From an uncultured Actinomycetes bacterium (GTDB taxonomy: Bacteria > Actinomycetota > UBA4738 > HRBIN12): a DNA stretch of 64,000 nt. The notes beneath the pieces are model-generated. The model saw only the letters and a program-made list of their open reading frames with translations. It made no database searches and had not been told where the DNA came from. Below are positions 4,784 to 33,825 of the stretch, piece by piece (position 1 is the first letter of the stretch; every line of letters starts with the position of its first letter). Made by a program: the position numbers and the translations under genes. The stretch spans positions 8,595 to 72,594 of the forward strand of contig CAWFNS010000001.1 of the NCBI GenBank assembly GCA_963817235.1, written 5' to 3'.

Positions 4784-5346
4784 TCGCGTTCCTCGAAGGC
4801 GAGGTCGTCGACAAGGGCGCCGCCCGCGTCGTCATCGCGGTCGACGGGGTGGGTTACGAGCTGGCGGTGCCGAGCTCGGTGCTGACGGCGCTGCCGGCGG
4901 CGGGGGAGACCGCGCGCGTGCACACGCGGATGGTCGTGCGGGAGGACGCGATCACGCTGTTCGGGTTCGCGACGACCGACGAACGCGAGCTCTTCGACCG
5001 CCTGATCGGCGTCACCGGCGTCGGCCCGAAGGTCGCGCTCGCGTTCCTGTCCGCCCTGAAGCCCGACGCGATCCGGCGCGCGGTCGTCTCGGGCGATGCG
5101 GCCGCGTTGACCGTGGTGCCCGGGGTCGGCAAGAAGGTGGCGCAGCGCGTGGTGCTCGACCTCCGCGACGCGCTGGGCGGCGAGGCGGAGCTCACCGTGG
5201 AAGGGCCGCTGGCCGACGTGCGCGACGCGCTCGTGGCGCTCGGGCTGACCCCGGTCGAGGCATCCGAGGCGATGCGCGAGCTGGACGCGGACGGCAAGCC
5301 GGCCGACGAGCTGCTGCGCGAGGCGCTGCAGCGGGTGGGCCGATGA
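4780..5346 (+). CDS. ruvA: Holliday junction branch migration protein
   Basis: [34 protein letters not shown]; ATGA overlap with ruvC. Confidence 0.95.
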
Positions 5347-6366
5347 GCGACGAGCTCGAGCGGTTGACCGAGGGCGAGGCGATCTCGCCGGAGGATCGCG
5401 AGCTGGACGTCGCCCTGCGGCCGCGCTCGCTCGAGGAGTTCGTCGGGCAGGACAGGGTGAAGGAACAGCTCGCGGTCCTGCTGGAAGGGGCGCGCAACCG
5501 CGGCGAGCCGGTGGATCACCTGCTGTTCAGCGGGCCGCCGGGCCTCGGCAAGACGACGCTCGCGCAGATCGTCGCGCACGAGATGCGGGCCGGGTTCCAG
5601 CCGACGTCGGGGCCGGCGCTCGAGCGCCCGAGCGATCTCGCCGCGATCCTCACGAACCTCGGCGAGGGCGACGTGCTGTTCGTCGACGAGATCCACCGCA
5701 TGCCGAAGTCGGTCGAGGAGGTGCTGTATCCGGCGCTCGAGGACTTCACGCTCGACATCGTGCTCGGCAAGGGTGCGACCGCGCGGTCGATCCGGCTCGA
5801 CCTGCCGCGGTTCACGTTCGTCGGCGCCACCACCAGGCCCGGGCGGATCACGCGGCCGCTCCGCGAGCGCTTCGGGTTCTCCCCGCGCCTGGACTACTAC
5901 GTCGTCGAGGACCTGACCTCGATCGTGCGCCGCTCGGCCAGGCATCCTCGGCGTGGAGACCGACGCCGACGGCGCCCACGAGATCGCGCGCCGCTCGCGC
6001 GGCACGCCGCGCATCGCGAACCGCCTCCTGCGCCGGGTGCGCGACGTGGCGGAGGTCCGGCACGACGGGCGCGTGACCGGCGACGTCGCGCGCGCCGGGC
6101 TCGAGGTGTTCGAGGTCGACGAGGAGGGTCTGGACCGGTTGGACCACGCCGTGCTGCACGTGATCATCGAGAAGTTCGCCGGCGGACCGGTGGGCCTGTC
6201 GACGCTCAGCGCCGCGGTGGGGGAGGAGCCGGACACGATCGAGGACGTCGTCGAGCCGTACCTGCTGCAGCTGGGGTTCCTGCAGCGGACGCCGCGGGGC
6301 CGCGTTGCCACGGAACGCGCCTATCGGCACCTCGGCGCGACGGTGCCCGGCCGGCTCCCGCTGTAG
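5343..6366 (+). CDS. ruvB: Holliday junction branch migration helicase (frameshift near 5940)
   Basis: [49 protein letters not shown]. Confidence 0.96.
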
Positions 6367-6459
6367 AGCGGCGCCCGGGGCCCGCGGCGCGTTGCCGCAG
6401 GTAGACTCGGGTGCCGTTCCCACGAACCCGGAAGAACCGAGAAGGAAGGACGCACGCCC

Positions 6460-6861
6460 GTGATCGCCCAGCTCCTCGCCGCCTCGTCCGGCTCGGCGGC
6501 AGCCTCATCACCCTGCTGGTGTTCATGCTGCCCCTCGGCCTGCTGTTCGTGTTCATGCGGAACCAGCAGAAGCGCGTGAAGCAGCAGCAATCGAACCAGC
6601 AGGCCGCCCAGGTCGGCGAGGACATCCTCACGACCTCGGGCATCTTCGGCACGATCGTCGACGAGGACGAGGAGGAGGGCATCGTCACCGTCGAGATCGC
6701 CCCCGGCACCCAGATCAGGATGGTGCGTGCCGGCATCGCCCGCCGGATCACCGAGGATGCCTACGACGACGACGACGGGCTACGCCGCCGACGACGAGGA
6801 CGACACCGACGTCTCCGACGACGAGCCCGACGAGAACGCCCAGGGCCCCATCCGGTCGTGA
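6460..6861 (+). CDS. yajC: preprotein translocase subunit YajC (frameshifts near 6495 and 6780)
   Basis: TM helix, then QQKRVKQQQ and VGEDILTTSGIFGTI; acidic tail; TAGACT -10 at 6402-6407; position before secDF. Confidence 0.85.
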
Positions 6862-7601
6862 GCGAGGAAGGCGCGATCGGCACGCCCGAGGGCGCGCCCG
6901 TCCCCGAGGTACCGATCGTCGAGCCCCCCGCGGCTGAGGCCGCCAGCATCGCGCTCCTCGACGTCCAGGAGGATCCCGAGCTCTCGCTGTACATCGCCTC
7001 GGCGGACCGGGTGATGGACGCGATGGGCTACACCGAGCACGGCTTCCGGCACGCGAACCTCGTCGCGAAGATCGCGTACCAGGTGCTGCACCGGCTCGGC
7101 TACTCCGAGCGCGAGGCCGAGCTGGCGTGCGTGGCCGGCTACCTGCACGACGTCGGGAACGCGCTGGCCCGCGACGCGCACGGCCAGACCGGCGCCGTGA
7201 TGGTCTACCAGGCCCTGAAGGACCGCGCGAGCGGCCCCGACCTGATGCCGATCGTCGCCGCGATCGCGAACCACGAGGAGGCGGAGGGCACCGCGGTCTC
7301 GCCGATCTCGGCCGCCGTGATCCTCGCGGACAAATCCGACGTGCACCGCAGCCGCGTACGCAAAGCGGTGACCCTCGATCGCGACATCCACGACCGCGTG
7401 AACTACGCCGTTGAGCAGAGTTTCCTCCGGGTAGACTCCGACGCTCGAACGGTCAGCCTCGAGCTGACGATCGACACGACCATCAGCAAGGTCATGGAGT
7501 ACTTCGAGATCTTCCTGGGCAGGATGCAGCTGTGCCGCTTCGCGGCCGAAGCCGTGGACGCGCGCTTCCGCCTGGTGATCAACGGGCAGGAGCTGGCATG
7601 A
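6858..7601 (+). CDS. HD-domain metal-dependent phosphohydrolase
   Basis: GYTEHGFRH, LHDVGN, ANHEE, ADKSDVHRSRV, HDRVNYAV motifs. Confidence 0.88.
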   Translation: MSEEGAIGTPEGAPVPEVPIVEPPAAEAASIALLDVQEDPELSLYIASADRVMDAMGYTEHGFRHANLVAKIAYQVLHRLGYSEREAELACVAGYLHDVGNALARDAHGQTGAVMVYQALKDRASGPDLMPIVAAIANHEEAEGTAVSPISAAVILADKSDVHRSRVRKAVTLDRDIHDRVNYAVEQSFLRVDSDARTVSLELTIDTTISKVMEYFEIFLGRMQLCRFAAEAVDARFRLVINGQELA

Positions 7602-9776
7602 AGAAGACGCGCGGCCTGTGGATCTCGGTGATCCTGGTCGCCGTCCTCGTGGTGGTCTCCGTCGTCGGGTTCGCGGTCGGCAGCCTGAAGCCGGTCCTCG
7701 GCCTCGACCTGGAGGGCGGCGTCTCCGTGATCCTGTCCGCGCCGGAGGGCACGCCGCGCGACGTGATGAACCAGGCGCTGGAGAACATCCGCAACCGCGT
7801 CGACGCGTTCGGCGTGGGCGAGCCCGACATCGTGCTGGCCGGCAACACGATCGAGATCCAGATCCCGGGTCTGTCCAACAGCACCGTGCAGCAGCGGAGC
7901 TCCGACGTCTACTGCATCACGGATCCGTCGGGGACCAGCTACGGCTGCTCGGCCGATCAGGCGCCGCCGAAGGAGGCGCTCGGCGGGTTCCAGGTGACCT
8001 CGGAGCCCACGAAGGTCTGCCTCGTCACCACGGATGCCGATCCACTGAAGTGCTACTCCACGGCGGCCGAGGCCGCGGCCGCGAAGGGCGGGATCACCGT
8101 GCAGCCCAAGCAGAGCGCCACGCCGACCCCGTCGGTCTCGGCCTCGGCCGTCCCGAGCGCCTCGCCGACGGCGGGTCCGCCGCCGCAGGCGTCGTCGTAC
8201 TGCCTCACCGACTTCGCCGAGAACGAACTGCACTGCTACCCGACGCAGGCGCAGGCGGAGGCCGCCCGCAAGGCGATCACCACGACGACCACCCAGACCA
8301 CCTGGTGCATCGAGCCGGCGACGCCGCCGAGCGCGACCGCGAGCGCCACGCCGACGCCGAGCGCCTCGGCCTCGTTGTCGCCGTCGGCGTCGGCCTCGCC
8401 CACGCCCGACGCGGCCGCGGCGTTCGATCAGCTGGACCGCGGTTCTGCGCAGCCCCTGCCGTGCGACTTCGCGACGAAGCAGACCGCCCAGGCCGCGCTG
8501 GACGGGTTCGCGGTGAACCACGTGACGACGCAGTACTGCGTCGTGAGCTCGCAGAACGAGGAGCTCGGCTGCTTCACGACGCAGGCCGCCGCCGCCGAGA
8601 AGCAGCGAGAGACCGGCCAGCAGCACCTGCTGGACATCATCGGGAAGACCGCGCGTCTGGAGGAACGGGCGACGATCCAGATCGTCACGCCGGCCGATCC
8701 GCAGTACGACTCGATCCAGCTGACGTGTCAGACCGCGGCCGAGCAGGCCACGAGGTCGTGCCTCGCCGCCGCGCAGGACAAGAACCCCGTCTGGTACCCG
8801 GACCAACAGAAGGACAAGGTCAACCTGGGGCCGGTCATCATCACCGGCAGCGACATCACGAAGGCCTCCGCGCAGCTGAGCAGCGACCCGAACACCGGGG
8901 TCACGCAATGGGTGGTGGCGTTCCAGCTGAACGGCACGGGCTCCGCGAAGTTCGAGCAGGCGACGCGGGCGGCCCTGAACGCGCCGCCGCCGCAGAACCA
9001 GATCGCGATCGCCGTGGACCGCACGATCATCTCGAACCCGGTCGTGAACGGCGTGATCACCGGCAACGGCGAGATCAGCGGCAACTTCACCGAGCAGGAG
9101 GCGAAGGACCTCGCCACGGTGTTGAACGCCGGCGCCCTGCCGGTGGAGCTGACGCGGCAGTCGGTGCAGACCGTGAGCCCGACCCTCGGTGCGCAGTCGC
9201 TGCGCCAGGGCATCATCGCCGGGATCGCGGGTCTGATCCTGCTGTTCGTCTACCTGCTCCTGTACTACCGCCTGCTCGGCATCGTCGCGTGGGTCGGCAT
9301 GACGATCTGGGCGATCCTCGCGCTCGCGCTCGTGTCCGTTCGCCGGCAAGAGCTTCGGCTACGCGCTGTCGCTGGCCGGCGTGGCGGGTCTGGTGATCTC
9401 CCTCGGGGTCACGGCCGACTCCTACATCGTGTTCTTCGAACGATTGAAGGACGAGGTCCGGTCGGGGCGGTCGCCGCGGACGGCGACCCAACCGGCGTTC
9501 AAGCGGGCGTTCCGCACGATCGTGGCGGCCGACACCGTCACCGGCATCGCCGCCGCGGTCCTGTACCTGACGGCCGTCAGCTCCGTCCGCGGGTTCGCGC
9601 TCACGCTGGGCGTGGCCACCCTGCTCGACCTGTTCGTCGTCTACTTCTTCAAGCGGCCGACGGTGTACCTCATCTCGCGGAACCCGAGGCTGGTCGAGAT
9701 GCCCGGCTTCGGGCTGGGCTCGGCGGCCGCGGCCGACCACGAGGCGCTCGACACCTCGGGGGAGCCGGCGTCGTGA
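7598..9776 (+). CDS. secD: protein translocase subunit SecD with a large Cys-repeat insertion (frameshift near 9340)
   Basis: LGLDLEGG, RNRVDAFGVGEP, VLNAGALP, VSPTLG, DSYIVFFERLKDE, VRGFALTL. Confidence 0.93.
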
Positions 9777-10966
9777 ACACCCGCGAGTTCTTCGACGTCT
9801 ACCGCGGGTACCGCATCCCGCACTTCAAGCTGATCGAGCACCGGAACTGGTGGTTCGCGTTCTCGTCGGTGCTCATCGTGCTCTCGCTGCTGGGGATCTT
9901 CGTGCGGGGCTTCAACTTCTCGATCGACTTCGAGGGCGGGGCGCGGATCAGCTATCCCGTGCGGACGCAGATCACGGTGCAGGACGTCGAGGCGACGATG
10001 GCGCGGTTCGGCTACACGGACGCCGAGGTGCAGATCGTCGGCGGCGACACGGTGCAGATCCGGTCGACGTCGCTGTCGGGCAGCGGCGCATCGTCGTCGC
10101 CGACGGCGTCCACGACCGCCTCCCCGGGCGCGTCCGCGTCGGCGAGCCCGAGCGCGACGGAGGGCTCGGGGACCTCCGACGCGACGACCGGGCTGCTGAC
10201 CTCGCTCGCGAAGCAGGCCGGCGTCGCCTACACGGATGTGAACGTCGAGACCATCGGGCCGACGTGGGGGCAGGAGATCTCGAAGAAGGCGCTCCGGGGA
10301 CTGATCGTGGTCCTCGTGGCGATCACGCTGTACATCGCGTTCCGGTTCGAGTGGACGATGGCCGCCGGCGCGATGATCGCCCTCGTCCACGACGTCACGA
10401 TCACGGCCGGCGTGTACGCCCTCACCGGCAGGGAGGTCACCCCCGAGACGGTGATCGCGATCCTCACGATCCTCGGGTTCTCCCTGTACGACACCGTGGT
10501 GATCTACGACAAGATCAAGGAGAACACCGAGTCGCCGGCGCTGCTGGCGCGCATGGGCTACACGAAGGTCGTCGACCTCTCGCTGAACCAGACCGTGATG
10601 CGCTCGGTGAACACGTCGCTCGTCGTGCTGCTGCCGATCCTGTCGCTCCTGCTCTTCGGCGGCGAGACGCTGAAGAACTTCGCGTTCGCGATGTTCATCG
10701 GGGTCGCGATCGGCGCCTACTCGTCGATCTTCATCGCCGCGCCGATGCTCACCGTGATGAAGGAGCGGCAGCAGGGCCGCCAGCCTGTGCAGCGCGCGCG
10801 CGGCGGGGTCCAGCGGCCGAGGGCGGCGGCGGTGCCGGCCTCGGGCACCGAGATGGCGGCGACGTCGGACGCCGCGGCGAAGAACGCCACGGCGAAGCAG
10901 GGGCCCGGCGCGCGCTCGCGCCCGGCGAAGAAGCGGCGCCCGCCGGCGAAGCGCAAACGGAGGTAA
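9773..10966 (+). CDS. secF: protein translocase subunit SecF
   Basis: SIDFEGG, IGPTWG, ALVHDV, LTILGFSLYDTVVIYDKIKEN, RSVNTS; GTGA overlap with the secD stop. Confidence 0.95.
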   Translation: MNTREFFDVYRGYRIPHFKLIEHRNWWFAFSSVLIVLSLLGIFVRGFNFSIDFEGGARISYPVRTQITVQDVEATMARFGYTDAEVQIVGGDTVQIRSTSLSGSGASSSPTASTTASPGASASASPSATEGSGTSDATTGLLTSLAKQAGVAYTDVNVETIGPTWGQEISKKALRGLIVVLVAITLYIAFRFEWTMAAGAMIALVHDVTITAGVYALTGREVTPETVIAILTILGFSLYDTVVIYDKIKENTESPALLARMGYTKVVDLSLNQTVMRSVNTSLVVLLPILSLLLFGGETLKNFAFAMFIGVAIGAYSSIFIAAPMLTVMKERQQGRQPVQRARGGVQRPRAAAVPASGTEMAATSDAAAKNATAKQGPGARSRPAKKRRPPAKRKRR

Positions 10967-32502: not shown

Positions 32503-33825
32503 CTAGAGCGGCCACCGAGGGAGCAGCCGGAGCCCGTCCGCCCACGTGCGCGGGATCCACACCCCGGTCCACACCGGCGCGTACGCCAGCCCGACGACGA
32601 TGGTCGCGGCCGCGAACGCCATCCCCACGCCGCGGCTCCATCCTCCCGGCAGCCGACGGAGCGTGGCCGCCAGGCACAGGCACATGAACGGGACGGCGGG
32701 CAGCATGTAGAAGATGAACTGACTCCGGGAGACGAGGAGCCAGGGCAGGAACATCGCCGCGTACCCGCCGAACGCCACCGCCTCCTGCCAGCGAGGGCGC
32801 CGGAGCGCCGTGAACGCCGCGACCGGCAGCGACAGCAGGAACCCCCACCAGAGCACCGGGTTGCCGAGCGCGACGATCTTGCTGACCGACGTGCCCCGGG
32901 TCTCGGCGAAGTACTGGATCGGATGCAGCAGCAGCGGCCAGGTCCACGGGCGCGAGTTCTCCGGCTGCACCTTCAGGTGGTGCTCCTGGTACTGGAGCAT
33001 CCGGATCTGCAACGTCACGAAGTCGTGCACGGCGAACCCGTGCTGGGAGAAGAAGGCGCCGTAGCTGACGAGGTAGACCAGCAGCGGCACGACCGCCAGC
33101 GACAGCACGATCGTCGCGACCTCTCGCGCGCGCGACCGATCCCGGGGTCCGTCGCGCCGGAGGCTCCACACGGCGCACAGCAGCACCGCCAGCGCCAGCG
33201 CGTAGAAGCCCGACCACTTCGTCGCGATCGCCGCCCCGAAGGCGACGCCCGCCCACAGGCGCCACGGTGAGCCGAAGGCCCGCGTGGTCCGGGGCCACCG
33301 CGTCGCGGCGGCCCGACCGAGCCGCTCGCGGTCCAGGACGAGGAACAGGAACCCGGCGATGATGAAGGTCGACAGGAAGATGTCGAGCATCGCCAGCCGG
33401 CTCTGGACGATGTGCAGGCCGTCGAACGCGAGCAGGACCGCCGCGAAGGCCGCCCACCCAGGGGATCCCCACAGGCGCAGGGCCAGCAGGTAGAGCAGGG
33501 CGACGCCCGCGATCCCGAACAGCGCCGAGGGGAGCCGCCAGCCGAACGCGTGCAGGCCGAGCGGCCCCACCCCCAACAGCGCGATGATCCATTTCCCCAT
33601 CGGCGGGTGGATCCACGTCCCCTCGTCGTCGATCTTGACCGGCGGCGGGTTGCCGACCGGCTGGCCGAACCCGCCATGCAGGTAGACCTCCGCGTCGAAC
33701 ACGTAGTACTGCTCGTCCCAGTACAGGCTCGGCGGGGACGGCAGCGACCACAGCCGCAGGACGGCCGCCGCCAGCAGGATCAGGCACGGGAGGGCGAGCC
33801 GCCGCCAGCCTCGGTCCTCGCCCAT
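32503..33825 (-). CDS. pmt: PMT-type (GT39, GT-C fold) lipid-linked-sugar protein O-glycosyltransferase
   Basis: YWDEQYY, HPPMGKW, GWR, DGLHIVQSRLAMLDIF, ATKWSG, S.PW.WP, GNP.LWW, QFIFY.LP; many TM helices. Confidence 0.85.
   Translation of the reverse strand: MGEDRGWRRLALPCLILLAAAVLRLWSLPSPPSLYWDEQYYVFDAEVYLHGGFGQPVGNPPPVKIDDEGTWIHPPMGKWIIALLGVGPLGLHAFGWRLPSALFGIAGVALLYLLALRLWGSPGWAAFAAVLLAFDGLHIVQSRLAMLDIFLSTFIIAGFLFLVLDRERLGRAAATRWPRTTRAFGSPWRLWAGVAFGAAIATKWSGFYALALAVLLCAVWSLRRDGPRDRSRAREVATIVLSLAVVPLLVYLVSYGAFFSQHGFAVHDFVTLQIRMLQYQEHHLKVQPENSRPWTWPLLLHPIQYFAETRGTSVSKIVALGNPVLWWGFLLSLPVAAFTALRRPRWQEAVAFGGYAAMFLPWLLVSRSQFIFYMLPAVPFMCLCLAATLRRLPGGWSRGVGMAFAAATIVVGLAYAPVWTGVWIPRTWADGLRLLPRWPL

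What the first reader, a model, noticed from the sequence alone, without database searches (positions are those of the whole stretch)
7910..8610. SecD carries five tandem Cys-pair repeat modules in its extracytoplasmic P1 region
A ~230-aa insertion repeats [YVW]C-x(~9-10)-C-[YF]xT..A.A..A: YCITDPSGTSYGC, VCLVTTDADPLKCYST, YCLTDFAENELHCYPT, WC-(long S/T/P loop)-PCDFAT and YCVVSSQNEELGCFTT. Ser/Thr/Pro-rich spacers separate them. This looks like a disulfide-stapled hairpin+helix repeat, which I do not recognise from standard SecD. It may extend the substrate-capturing head, act as an attached chaperone or redox module, or reach across a thick wall. The S/T/P spacers are typical O-mannosylation targets, and a PMT is encoded in this window.
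Basis: partly seen in the sequence, partly recalled or inferred. Interest (0 to 1): 0.7.

Follow-up and report, generated by a model that had tools for sequence, protein, structure and literature searches.

The report
Five cysteine-clasped mini-domains inside SecD
The protein-export helper SecD of this uncultured soil actinobacterium carries a conserved outward-facing insert of five small hairpin-plus-helix units, each probably locked by a disulfide bond. The unit also occurs in phage head-assembly proteins, the insert appears undescribed, and its role is not known.

Summary
SecD (window 7598-9776, with a 1-nt frameshift near 9335) has a ~250-residue insertion (residues 96-345, window 7883-8632) that no Pfam, NCBIfam or PDB entry covers. 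It consists of five homologous ~35-residue modules. Profile-profile scores are 19.5-54, against a shuffled null of about 8. Each module has a Cys pair that is invariant or nearly so in 121 cluster representatives. AlphaFold2 predicts each module confidently as beta-hairpin, helix and connecting strand (pLDDT 85.8, pTM 0.70).

The insert lies in the N-terminal (base) part of P1, not in the Pfam-defined head. A sixth Cys pair (C377/C388) is a separate element.

Within the same GTDB order, SecD has 0, 1 or 5 modules. The single module matches module 5 best. The window's family adds Ser/Thr/Pro-rich linkers and a long loop in module 4.

The module also occurs in phage head-maturation protease, scaffold and portal proteins and in 60-70-aa phage proteins.

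My reading is a non-catalytic, disulfide-rigidified appendage built by amplifying a phage-like mini-domain. A holdase or guide role is inferred, not shown. It is a new variant of a known machine. Earlier agents in this scan reached the same reading on other genomes.

The parts
7598..9776 (+). secD coding region, broken by a 1-nt insertion near 9335. Residues 1-~580 are in the frame of 7598 and the C-terminal ~145 residues are in the +1 frame.
   Evidence: Pfam SecD_1st, SecDF_P1_head and SecD_SecF_C; TIGR01129. DNA alignment with L001 and L002 shows one extra C. Relatives such as L001 and P0002 (96-98% identical) are intact.
7610..7678 (+). TM1 (residues 5-27), which places P1 outside the cell
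   Evidence: AF2 helix 5-27. Topology follows the SecD family (established knowledge).
7766..7882 (+). N-terminal P1 (base) segment up to strand IEIQIPG, matching PF21760 positions 1-40
   Evidence: AF2 strands 77-81 and 84-89
7883..8632 (+). The insertion (residues 96-345): five Cys-pair modules plus two Ser/Thr/Pro-rich disordered stretches
   Evidence: No Pfam or NCBIfam hit. 202 homologous clusters, nearly all 720-750-aa SecD. AF2 pLDDT 85.8, pTM 0.70.
7895..8005 (+). Module 1 (residues 100-136; C106, C117)
8000..8110 (+). Module 2 (residues 135-171; C141, C152)
8111..8182 (+). Ser/Thr/Pro-rich linker (residues 172-195), predicted disordered. It is absent from the compact five-module SecDs of sister family f3.
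   Evidence: pLDDT below 50 at 175-194; comparison with L081 and L082
8183..8293 (+). Module 3 (residues 196-232; C202, C213)
8288..8524 (+). Module 4 (residues 231-309; C237, C289). Its hairpin tip is expanded by a 44-residue loop (8315-8446). The first half of the loop is Ser/Thr/Pro-rich and disordered. The second half is conserved (AYxxLDxxGxxxLPC).
   Evidence: With the loop removed it matches M1-M3 at 91-96% hhalign probability. The Cys-Cys distance across the loop varies from 52 to 73 residues between species. Short helix at 272-278.
8519..8629 (+). Module 5 (residues 308-344; C314, C325). Its helix runs straight into the canonical SecD helix LLDIIGKTARLE. It is the counterpart of the single module in sister families.
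   Evidence: AF2 helix 329-349. Single-module SecDs score best on the M5 profile, 22-48 bits.
8726..8761 (+). Sixth Cys pair (C377-x10-C388), not part of the repeat. It is also present in a module-less SecD of the same order (L090).
8807..9145 (+). P1 head subdomain (residues 404-516)
   Evidence: PF22599, E 4e-26
9333..9337 (+). Frameshift site: one extra C relative to L001 and L002
9770..10966 (+). secF
   Evidence: PF02355 E 2e-61 and the Sec_GG motif

Best explanation
Residues 96-345 of SecD form a lineage-specific appendage on the outside of the cell. It is spliced into the N-terminal (base) part of the P1 domain, between strand IEIQIPG and helix LLDIIGKTARLE.

Anatomy (shown):
- It consists of five homologous ~35-residue mini-domains.
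- Each is a beta-hairpin, a short helix and a strand that continues into the next module.
- Each has one conserved Cys on each hairpin strand.
- Module 5's helix is continuous with the canonical base helix.

Inferred:
- The Cys pairs form five structural disulfides made by the VKOR-dependent oxidative folding pathway.
- The array arose by amplifying one module to five. That single module still sits at the same site in SecD of sister families, and it is homologous to a mini-domain of phage head-maturation protease, scaffold and portal proteins.
- Because the number is fixed at five and each position is conserved separately, the five modules act as one rigid body fixed to the base.
- The array is non-catalytic. 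It most likely acts as a static platform beside the mobile P1 head that contacts the emerging unfolded chain, or a partner, through exposed beta edges (a holdase or guide).
- The two Ser/Thr/Pro-rich stretches are disordered and are possibly O-glycosylated additions specific to this family.
For: - Repeat homology: hhalign 89-98% probability, scores 19.5-54 against a shuffled null of ~8.
- Cys conservation: six of the 10 insert Cys are invariant and C152 and C289 are in 120 of 121 cluster representatives. There is no Cys outside P1 in most proteins.
- Structure: AF2 gives hairpin, helix and strand per module, with pLDDT 85-97 in modules and pTM 0.70 for the insert alone.
- Position: the insert splits PF21760 at position 40 of 60, and the head model starts at residue 404.
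- VKOR is present in the genome at 105 bits.
- Distribution: all 80 related loci have five modules in SecD and none elsewhere. The own genome has the module only in SecD.
- Order-wide census: family f1 gives 4-5 hits, f3 gives 5-6, most f2, f4, f6 and f7 genomes give 1, and f5 and f8 give 0. A further large group has compact five-module arrays.
- Age: orthologous modules are 49-65% identical and paralogous ones 18-31%. There is no DNA-level repeat.
- Phage link: the module profile finds phage proteins at library-wide E 1e-5 to 5.5e-18. hhalign between SecD and phage modules gives 99%. A phage-only HMM finds SecD as the sole significant hit in the genome, E 2.6e-14. BFVD gives local matches to small phage proteins, for example rmsd 0.7 A over 42 residues.
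Against: - No experiment exists and there is no cultured member.
- Disulfide geometry could not be measured because model coordinates are not exposed.
- The DsbA-like family Thioredoxin_4 was not found, although the genome is only 76% complete.
- The holdase or platform role rests only on anatomy and analogy. No conserved binding surface was identified.
- The phage homologues are cytoplasmic proteins, so whatever the mini-domain does there does not need a disulfide.
- Curated PHROG profiles match SecD modules only weakly (E 0.028 at best). The phage alignment was selected with the SecD profile, so overstates independence.
- Some genera of the family give fewer HMM hits: g17 gives 1 and g22 gives 2-4.
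Confidence: 0.55

Rival explanations
1. Cell-wall reading. The array binds peptidoglycan or another wall polymer, or serves as a stiff spacer. This would position SecDF relative to the wall, with glycosylated Ser/Thr/Pro linkers acting as flexible tethers.
For: - It is extracytoplasmic, rigid and disulfide-stapled.
- It has Ser/Thr/Pro-rich linkers of the type typical of actinobacterial wall-zone proteins.
- Foldseek on BFVD gives a local match to a 44-aa phage protein labelled SPOR domain-containing (rmsd 0.6 A over 29 residues, prob 0.85, E 1.3).
- From memory, SPOR domains are built from two ~35-residue repeats.
Against: - No Pfam SPOR, LysM, PASTA or other wall-binding hit, even at E up to 1.
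- No SPOR or ferredoxin-like hit in the PDB fold search of the insert.
- Copy number is fixed at five, whereas spacers usually vary.
- The compact five-module arrays of sister lineages have no linkers at all.
- The phage homologues act inside the cell.
Confidence: 0.15
2. Redox reading. The Cys pairs are redox-active and form a thiol-disulfide relay at the Sec exit that oxidises or isomerises cysteines of emerging substrates.
For: Ten conserved Cys sit next to the translocon exit. The organism uses extracytoplasmic disulfide chemistry, since VKOR is present.
Against: - The motif is C-x10-C with one Cys on each strand of a hairpin, not CXXC at a helix N-terminus.
- There is no thioredoxin fold and no Pfam hit to redox families.
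- Residues next to the Cys are aromatic or Gly, as expected for packing.
- The homologous phage mini-domain works in the reducing cytoplasm.
Confidence: 0.05
3. Passenger reading. The insertion is a tolerated, selectively near-neutral passenger: a captured and amplified mini-domain with no specific role in secretion.
For: - It sits in a surface loop.
- Sister families function with 0 or 1 module.
- The family tolerates large disordered additions.
Against: - Cys are conserved in at least 120 of 121 representatives.
- Orthologous modules are 49-65% identical across hundreds of species, against 18-31% between paralogues.
- The count is fixed at five.
- There are conserved non-Cys positions, for example G116, A220, L279/D280 and G324.
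Confidence: 0.1

Closest known systems
Canonical SecD/SecDF (Thermus thermophilus 3AQP/3AQO; Deinococcus radiodurans 5XAN/5XAP; E. coli SecD in 5MG3)
   Same: - Same family and overall architecture: TM1, P1 with base and head, and a C-terminal membrane domain.
- GG motif present and secF downstream.
- Sequence and fold matches.
   Different: About 250 extra residues lie between the ...IPG strand and the following helix of the P1 N-terminal part. In D. radiodurans SecDF only about 45 residues span from that motif to the start of the aligned head segment. No solved SecDF has this insert.
Single-module and compact five-module SecDs of sister families in the same GTDB order (for example L084, L086; L081, L082; P0251)
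   Same: Same insertion site and same module. The single module matches M5 best (most at 40-48 bits). Modules b, c and e of family f3 match M2, M3 and M5.
   Different: The window's family adds a 24-28-aa Ser/Thr/Pro linker between M2 and M3, and a Cys-to-Cys distance of 52-73 residues across the hairpin of M4.
Phage mini-domain in head-maturation protease, scaffold and portal proteins (Mu-like_Pro PF10123, Peptidase_S78 PF04586, XkdF-type), and in 60-70-aa phage proteins (phrog_3684, phrog_2859; function unknown)
   Same: Same ~35-residue pattern: [KE]xGxx[FWY]C[VIL]-x8-11-C[HYF]x[TS]xxEAxA. Library-wide E values are 1e-5 to 5.5e-18, hhalign gives 99%, and the reciprocal search returns SecD.
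   Different: - The phage copies are cytoplasmic and number 1-3 per protein.
- They often have His after the second Cys.
- They are fused to capsid-assembly enzymes.
- Curated PHROG profiles reach the SecD modules only weakly.
DUF2188 (PF09954), a small uncharacterised domain that Lau et al. 2022 (bioRxiv 10.1101/2022.04.27.489752), citing Burroughs and Aravind 2020, describe as previously linked to bacterial defence
   Same: Weak sub-threshold matches: P0206 residues 300-337 (E 1.6e-4), 6 of 43 phage modules (best E 0.035) and 1 of 85 SecD modules (E 0.07).
   Different: No match reaches significance on a SecD module. This is a lead only.
SecD with parvulin insertions in CPR/Patescibacteria
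   Same: Another case of an extracytoplasmic domain built into SecD P1.
   Different: That insert is a recognisable foldase. The insert here has no recognisable enzymatic fold.

Membership tests
SecD (TIGR01129; PF21760 + PF22599 + PF02355) | N-terminal TM helix, large P1 domain with GG motif and head subdomain, C-terminal SecD_SecF_C membrane domain | tested here: met
   PF21760 E 3.5e-10, PF22599 E 4e-26, PF02355 at 517-590 and TIGR01129 E 8e-55. Foldseek matches 5XAN and 3AQP at E 1e-10 to 1e-13.
SecD (TIGR01129; PF21760 + PF22599 + PF02355) | secF immediately downstream, as in the usual secD-secF arrangement | tested here: met
   Window 9770-10966 matches PF02355 at E 2e-61 and has the Sec_GG motif. 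YajC lies upstream.
SecD (TIGR01129; PF21760 + PF22599 + PF02355) | Uninterrupted reading frame | tested here: not met
   One extra C near 9335 shifts the frame. Near-identical relatives are intact.
Thioredoxin-fold thiol-disulfide oxidoreductases (DsbA/DsbC/ResA type) | CXXC active site in a thioredoxin fold | tested here: not met
   Spacing is C-x10-C (C-x51-C in M4). No Pfam hit. AF2 gives hairpin plus helix.
SPOR domain (PF05036) | Match to the SPOR profile, or a beta-alpha-beta-beta-alpha-beta RNP-like fold | tested here: not met
   No Pfam hit at E up to 1. No SPOR or RNP hit in the PDB fold search of the insert. The only hint is one non-significant BFVD local match.
DUF2188 (PF09954) | Profile match at or above the gathering score | tested here: not met
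   1 of 85 SecD modules matches, at E 0.07. Some phage modules match weakly.
Phage Cys-pair mini-domain (phrog_3684 positions ~135-193; phrog_2859) | Significant profile match to the phage family | tested here: inconclusive
   The curated PHROG profile gives only E 0.028 (L081) and 0.25 (L084), and nothing for the window's own insert. My own profiles are significant in both directions.
Actinobacterial O-mannosylated exported proteins (PMT/GT39 substrates) | Exported, disordered Ser/Thr/Pro-rich segment, plus a PMT enzyme in the genome | tested here: met
   The linkers are Ser/Thr/Pro-rich with low pLDDT. The PMT family gives 4 hits, including window 33067-33780(-).
Actinobacterial O-mannosylated exported proteins (PMT/GT39 substrates) | Actual glycan on the protein | not testable with these tools
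   This needs glycoproteomics.

The most novel reading that the evidence does not exclude
An ancestor of this actinobacterial order captured a phage capsid-assembly mini-domain into a surface loop of the SecD P1 base. The lineage leading to this family then multiplied it into a fixed five-unit, disulfide-locked array. On this reading the array works as a built-in extracytoplasmic holdase or guide for unfolded chains leaving SecY. That role would mirror a so far unrecognised polypeptide-handling role of the same mini-domain in phage procapsid assembly.
Probability: 0.15. Interest if true: 0.7.

Novelty: new variant of a known kind. Interest (0 to 1): 0.45.

Why it matters
SecDF is the proton-driven motor that completes protein export, and its outward-facing P1 domain is where the emerging chain is handled. 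Here a fixed five-module, disulfide-stapled domain is added to that region. It is conserved across several hundred uncultured soil actinobacterial species. The 0, 1 and 5 module states are also visible in living lineages.

This would show that Gram-positive lineages remodel the Sec exit site with dedicated extracytoplasmic modules. It would also give a function-free phage mini-domain (phrog_3684, phrog_2859) a second, testable context. The module is small, confidently predicted and has no PDB analogue, so it is an easy target for structure work and binding assays. No function is shown, and the same feature has already been noted by earlier agents of this scan on other genomes, so the interest is moderate.

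Tried and rejected
- Pfam and NCBIfam on the insert gave nothing at E 0.1 or below. Pfam on 85 single modules at E up to 1 gave only scattered noise.
- PDB by sequence, using the module profile and a stand-alone phage protein, gave nothing meaningful.
- Foldseek of the insert model against PDB gave a best E of 1.9. Against BFVD nothing was significant, only short local matches.
- Ferredoxin-like or SPOR-like pairing of adjacent modules: considered because the full-length search gave ~50-residue ferredoxin-fold matches. These vanished when the insert alone was searched, so they belong to the SecD core.
- tblastn of a single SecD module against 50,697 phage genomes gave no match. The capsid maturation proteases of cultured actinophages match only the core of P0148, not its module-bearing N-terminus.
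- DNA-level repeats in 7850-8700: only short low-complexity matches, so there was no recent duplication.
- A search for the module elsewhere in the own genome and in 80 related loci found none outside SecD.
- The 10 hits in genome G107 are two loci with five modules each, not a ten-module protein.
- Literature searches for a description of the insert, or of the P1 head and base boundaries, found nothing usable.
- Cys-Cys distances could not be computed because the structure tool returns no coordinates.
Full report
**What is at the locus**

The plus-strand ORF starting at 7598 (ATG, overlapping the stop of the upstream gene by 4 bp) is SecD. Pfam finds SecD_1st (PF21760) at residues 57-95, the P1 head (PF22599) at 404-516, and the start of SecD_SecF_C at 517-590. 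NCBIfam TIGR01129 matches from residue 341 onward. SecF follows at 9770-10966, and YajC lies upstream.

The secD frame breaks near 9335. Alignment with two relatives shows one extra C in the window. A 98%-identical relative (L001) and a 96-97%-identical one (P0002) are intact. RuvB upstream also appears split across two reading frames. I therefore read the frameshift as a probable assembly indel.

**Checking the observation**

Relative to canonical SecD, the extra material is residues ~96-345 (window 7883-8632). It splits the PF21760 model at position 40 of 60, and neither Pfam nor NCBIfam covers it.

I cut five ~37-column module alignments out of 121 homologues and compared them profile against profile:
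- M1, M2, M3 and M5 match each other in register at 89-98% probability.
- M4, with its long loop removed, matches M1-M3 at 91-96% and M5 at 48%.
- Observed scores of 19.5-54.4 compare with a column-shuffled null of mean ~8, sd 1.5-2.9 and maximum 18.2.

The repeat is therefore real. A sixth C-x10-C pair (C377/C388) lies downstream. It is unrelated to the module and also occurs in a module-less SecD of the same order (L090).

**Conservation**

A search with the insert alone returned 202 protein clusters. Nearly all are 720-750-aa SecDs from uncultured Actinomycetota. In 121 representatives, six of the 10 insert Cys are invariant. C152, C289, C377 and C388 are each present in 120 of 121. Of the 121 proteins, 105 have exactly 12 Cys, all in P1. 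The spacing is 10-11 residues for four of the repeat pairs. For M4 it is 52-73 residues and varies between species.

All 80 loci recovered from species-representative genomes carry five modules in SecD and no module in neighbouring genes. The window's own 2.99-Mb genome has the module only in SecD. Orthologous modules are 49-65% identical across species, while paralogous modules within one protein are 18-31% identical. There is no DNA-level repeat. The amplification is therefore old, and each position has been conserved separately.

**Structure**

AlphaFold2 on the near-identical intact homologue P0002 with 116 sequences gives a standard SecD core plus confident modules (block pLDDT mostly 82-94). 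Two stretches are disordered, at 175-194 and 247-267.

Each module reads as a strand, a turn, a strand, a short helix, and then a long strand whose second half is the first hairpin strand of the next module. The two Cys sit on the two hairpin strands. The helix of M5 (329-349) is continuous with the canonical helix LLDIIGKTARLE.

The window's own insert, modelled alone with 79 sequences, gives mean pLDDT 85.8 and pTM 0.70. That suggests a defined arrangement of the whole array rather than beads on a string. Coordinates are not exposed, so I could not measure Cys-Cys distances or describe how the modules pack. This is the main gap in the disulfide argument.

The genome encodes VKOR, the actinobacterial counterpart of DsbB, at 105 bits. 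This makes extracytoplasmic disulfide formation plausible. The DsbA-like family Thioredoxin_4 was not found in this 76%-complete genome.

**Position in SecD**

The insert lies between the strand ending ...IEIQIPG and the following helix and strand of the N-terminal P1 element (PF21760). That is about 60 residues before the Pfam head model begins. In D. radiodurans SecDF the corresponding ...EIPG motif is followed within about 45 residues by the aligned head segment. It is an appendage of the base part of P1.

**Evolutionary series**

I searched 201 genomes of the same GTDB order with the module profile. The results by family were:
- The window's family f1 (about 30 genera): almost always 4-5 hits. 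M4 is sometimes missed.
- Family f3: 5-6 hits.
- Families f2, f4, f6 and f7: one hit in most genomes and none in some (for example g11, g45, g49, g56).
- Families f5 and f8: none.

Reading the sequences confirms this:
- f8 and f5 have the canonical short loop.
- f2, f4, f6 and f7 have one module at the same site, for example ...ERGGKFCVISSDGKELGCVASRDEAEAALQATGQERL...
- f3 has five modules packed head to tail with no linkers.

The single modules score best on the M5 profile (22-48 bits, except the divergent L083). Modules b, c and e of f3 match M2, M3 and M5. A second large set of 650-685-aa SecDs also has compact five-module arrays with 10 Cys.

I saw no clear 2-, 3- or 4-module forms among the SecDs I read. 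One genus (g22) gives only 2-4 HMM hits and another (g17) gives one. I did not resolve those. The 10 hits in genome G107 are two loci of five modules each. The Ser/Thr/Pro-rich linker between M2 and M3 and the long loop in M4 are additions of the window's family.

**Link to phages**

The module profile was scored against 1.84 billion representative proteins and found 129 proteins at E of 1e-3 or below. By motif, 51 are SecDs or SecD fragments, and many of the remaining 76 look like anchor-less SecD fragments. The others include phage proteins with 1-3 copies of [KE]xGxx[FWY]C[VIL]...GC[HYF]x[TS]xxEAxA. Pfam and PHROGs identify these as follows:
- Mu-like prophage protein I
- Caudovirus prohead protease S78
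- XkdF-type protease
- a capsid fusion protein
- portal or head-maturation protease families
- 61-70-aa stand-alone proteins of phrog_3684 and phrog_2859, function unknown

Library-wide E values reach 5.5e-18 (P0147), 1.2e-16 (P0148) and 5.7e-13 (P0156). Further support:
- hhalign between SecD and phage module alignments gives 99% probability. The phage alignment was selected with the SecD profile, so this is not independent.
- In the reverse direction, an HMM built from phage modules only finds SecD as the sole significant hit among 32,922 six-frame ORFs of the own genome (E 2.6e-14). It scores the single-module SecDs highest per domain, at 36-42 bits.
- Foldseek against BFVD gives non-significant but very tight local matches to small phage proteins. 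One example is a 63-aa Arthrobacter phage protein (rmsd 0.7 A over 42 residues, prob 0.96).

Curated PHROG profiles reach SecD modules only weakly (E 0.028 at best). Pfam DUF2188 and T4_Y13H appear only below threshold. I put the odds that the SecD module and the phage mini-domain are homologous at about 0.8. The direction of transfer is not established.

**What it most likely does**

Shown:
- The insert is extracytoplasmic by SecD topology.
- It is repetitive and confidently predicted.
- The Cys pairs are conserved.
- The copy number is fixed.
- It is attached to the P1 base through a continuous helix.
- It has no recognisable catalytic fold and no CXXC motif.

Inferred: the Cys pairs are structural disulfides that make a rigid, protease-resistant body. 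The non-Cys conserved positions are a Gly before the second Cys, aromatic residues next to both Cys, a Ser/Thr helix cap and helix Ala residues. These look structural rather than catalytic.

My best reading is a static platform next to the moving P1 head that contacts the emerging unfolded chain, or a partner, through exposed beta edges. I hold the functional part at low confidence.

The rivals are:
- a wall-binding or spacer role (0.15)
- a neutral passenger (0.10)
- a redox relay (0.05)

The Ser/Thr/Pro stretches are plausible O-mannosylation sites, and PMT-family genes exist, including one in the window at 33067-33780(-).

**Comparison and novelty**

The protein is a SecD by every tested family feature except the broken frame. 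The insert is not in Pfam, NCBIfam, PDB or the literature I could search. It is a new variant of a known machine.

After I had reached these conclusions, I found that two earlier follow-up agents of this scan had described the same five-module insert and the phage link in other genomes. These are AI notes and not independent evidence, but they agree.

This window adds several points:
- the family-specific Ser/Thr/Pro linkers and the M4 hairpin loop
- the explicit 0, 1 and 5 census across one order
- the assignment to the base part of P1
- the presence of VKOR
- the reciprocal phage-to-SecD search

Noticed in passing
window 9333-9337: secD carries one extra C relative to close relatives, which shifts the frame. 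The downstream frame stays open and conserved, so this is probably an assembly indel rather than a pseudogene.
   Followed up: partly
window 5343-6404: RuvB also appears split over two frames. The N-terminal part is in the frame of 5343 and the C-terminal part is in ORF 5953-6366. This suggests recurrent indel errors in the assembly.
   Followed up: no
window 6411-7601: One open frame holds YajC (residues 33-110) and an HD domain (212-310), joined by an Arg-rich stretch that looks out of frame. The HD gene overlaps the secD start by 4 bp (ATGA). This is either a YajC-HD fusion or two genes merged by indels. An HD-domain gene between yajC and secD is unusual.
   Followed up: partly
window 8726-8761 (SecD C377, C388): A sixth conserved C-x10-C pair lies between the base strand and the P1 head. 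It is unrelated to the module and is also present in a module-less SecD of the same order (L090).
   Followed up: partly
G107:C260:6097-6645 and G107:C157:643-1191: One genome of the same family has two separate loci, each with five modules. This could be two secD copies or a mixed bin.
   Followed up: partly
genera g22 and g17 of the same family (for example G165:C142, G049:C58; loci L098, L103): These SecDs give only 1-4 module hits. They could be divergent modules or secondary losses, and they would be informative for the claim that the count is fixed at five.
   Followed up: no
G000:C10:182784-183158: A stand-alone VKOR homologue (~145 aa, with a CLWC motif) is present in the window's genome. 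No Thioredoxin_4/DsbA-like hit was found in this 76%-complete genome.
   Followed up: partly
phage records H20, H11, H14 (T4-like Klebsiella, Enterobacter and Citrobacter phages): The stand-alone phage form of the mini-domain maps under genes annotated RNA ligase or anti-CBASS protein in T4-like phages, and under portal protein in Vibrio phage CP-T1. The domain is promiscuous in phage proteins.
   Followed up: no
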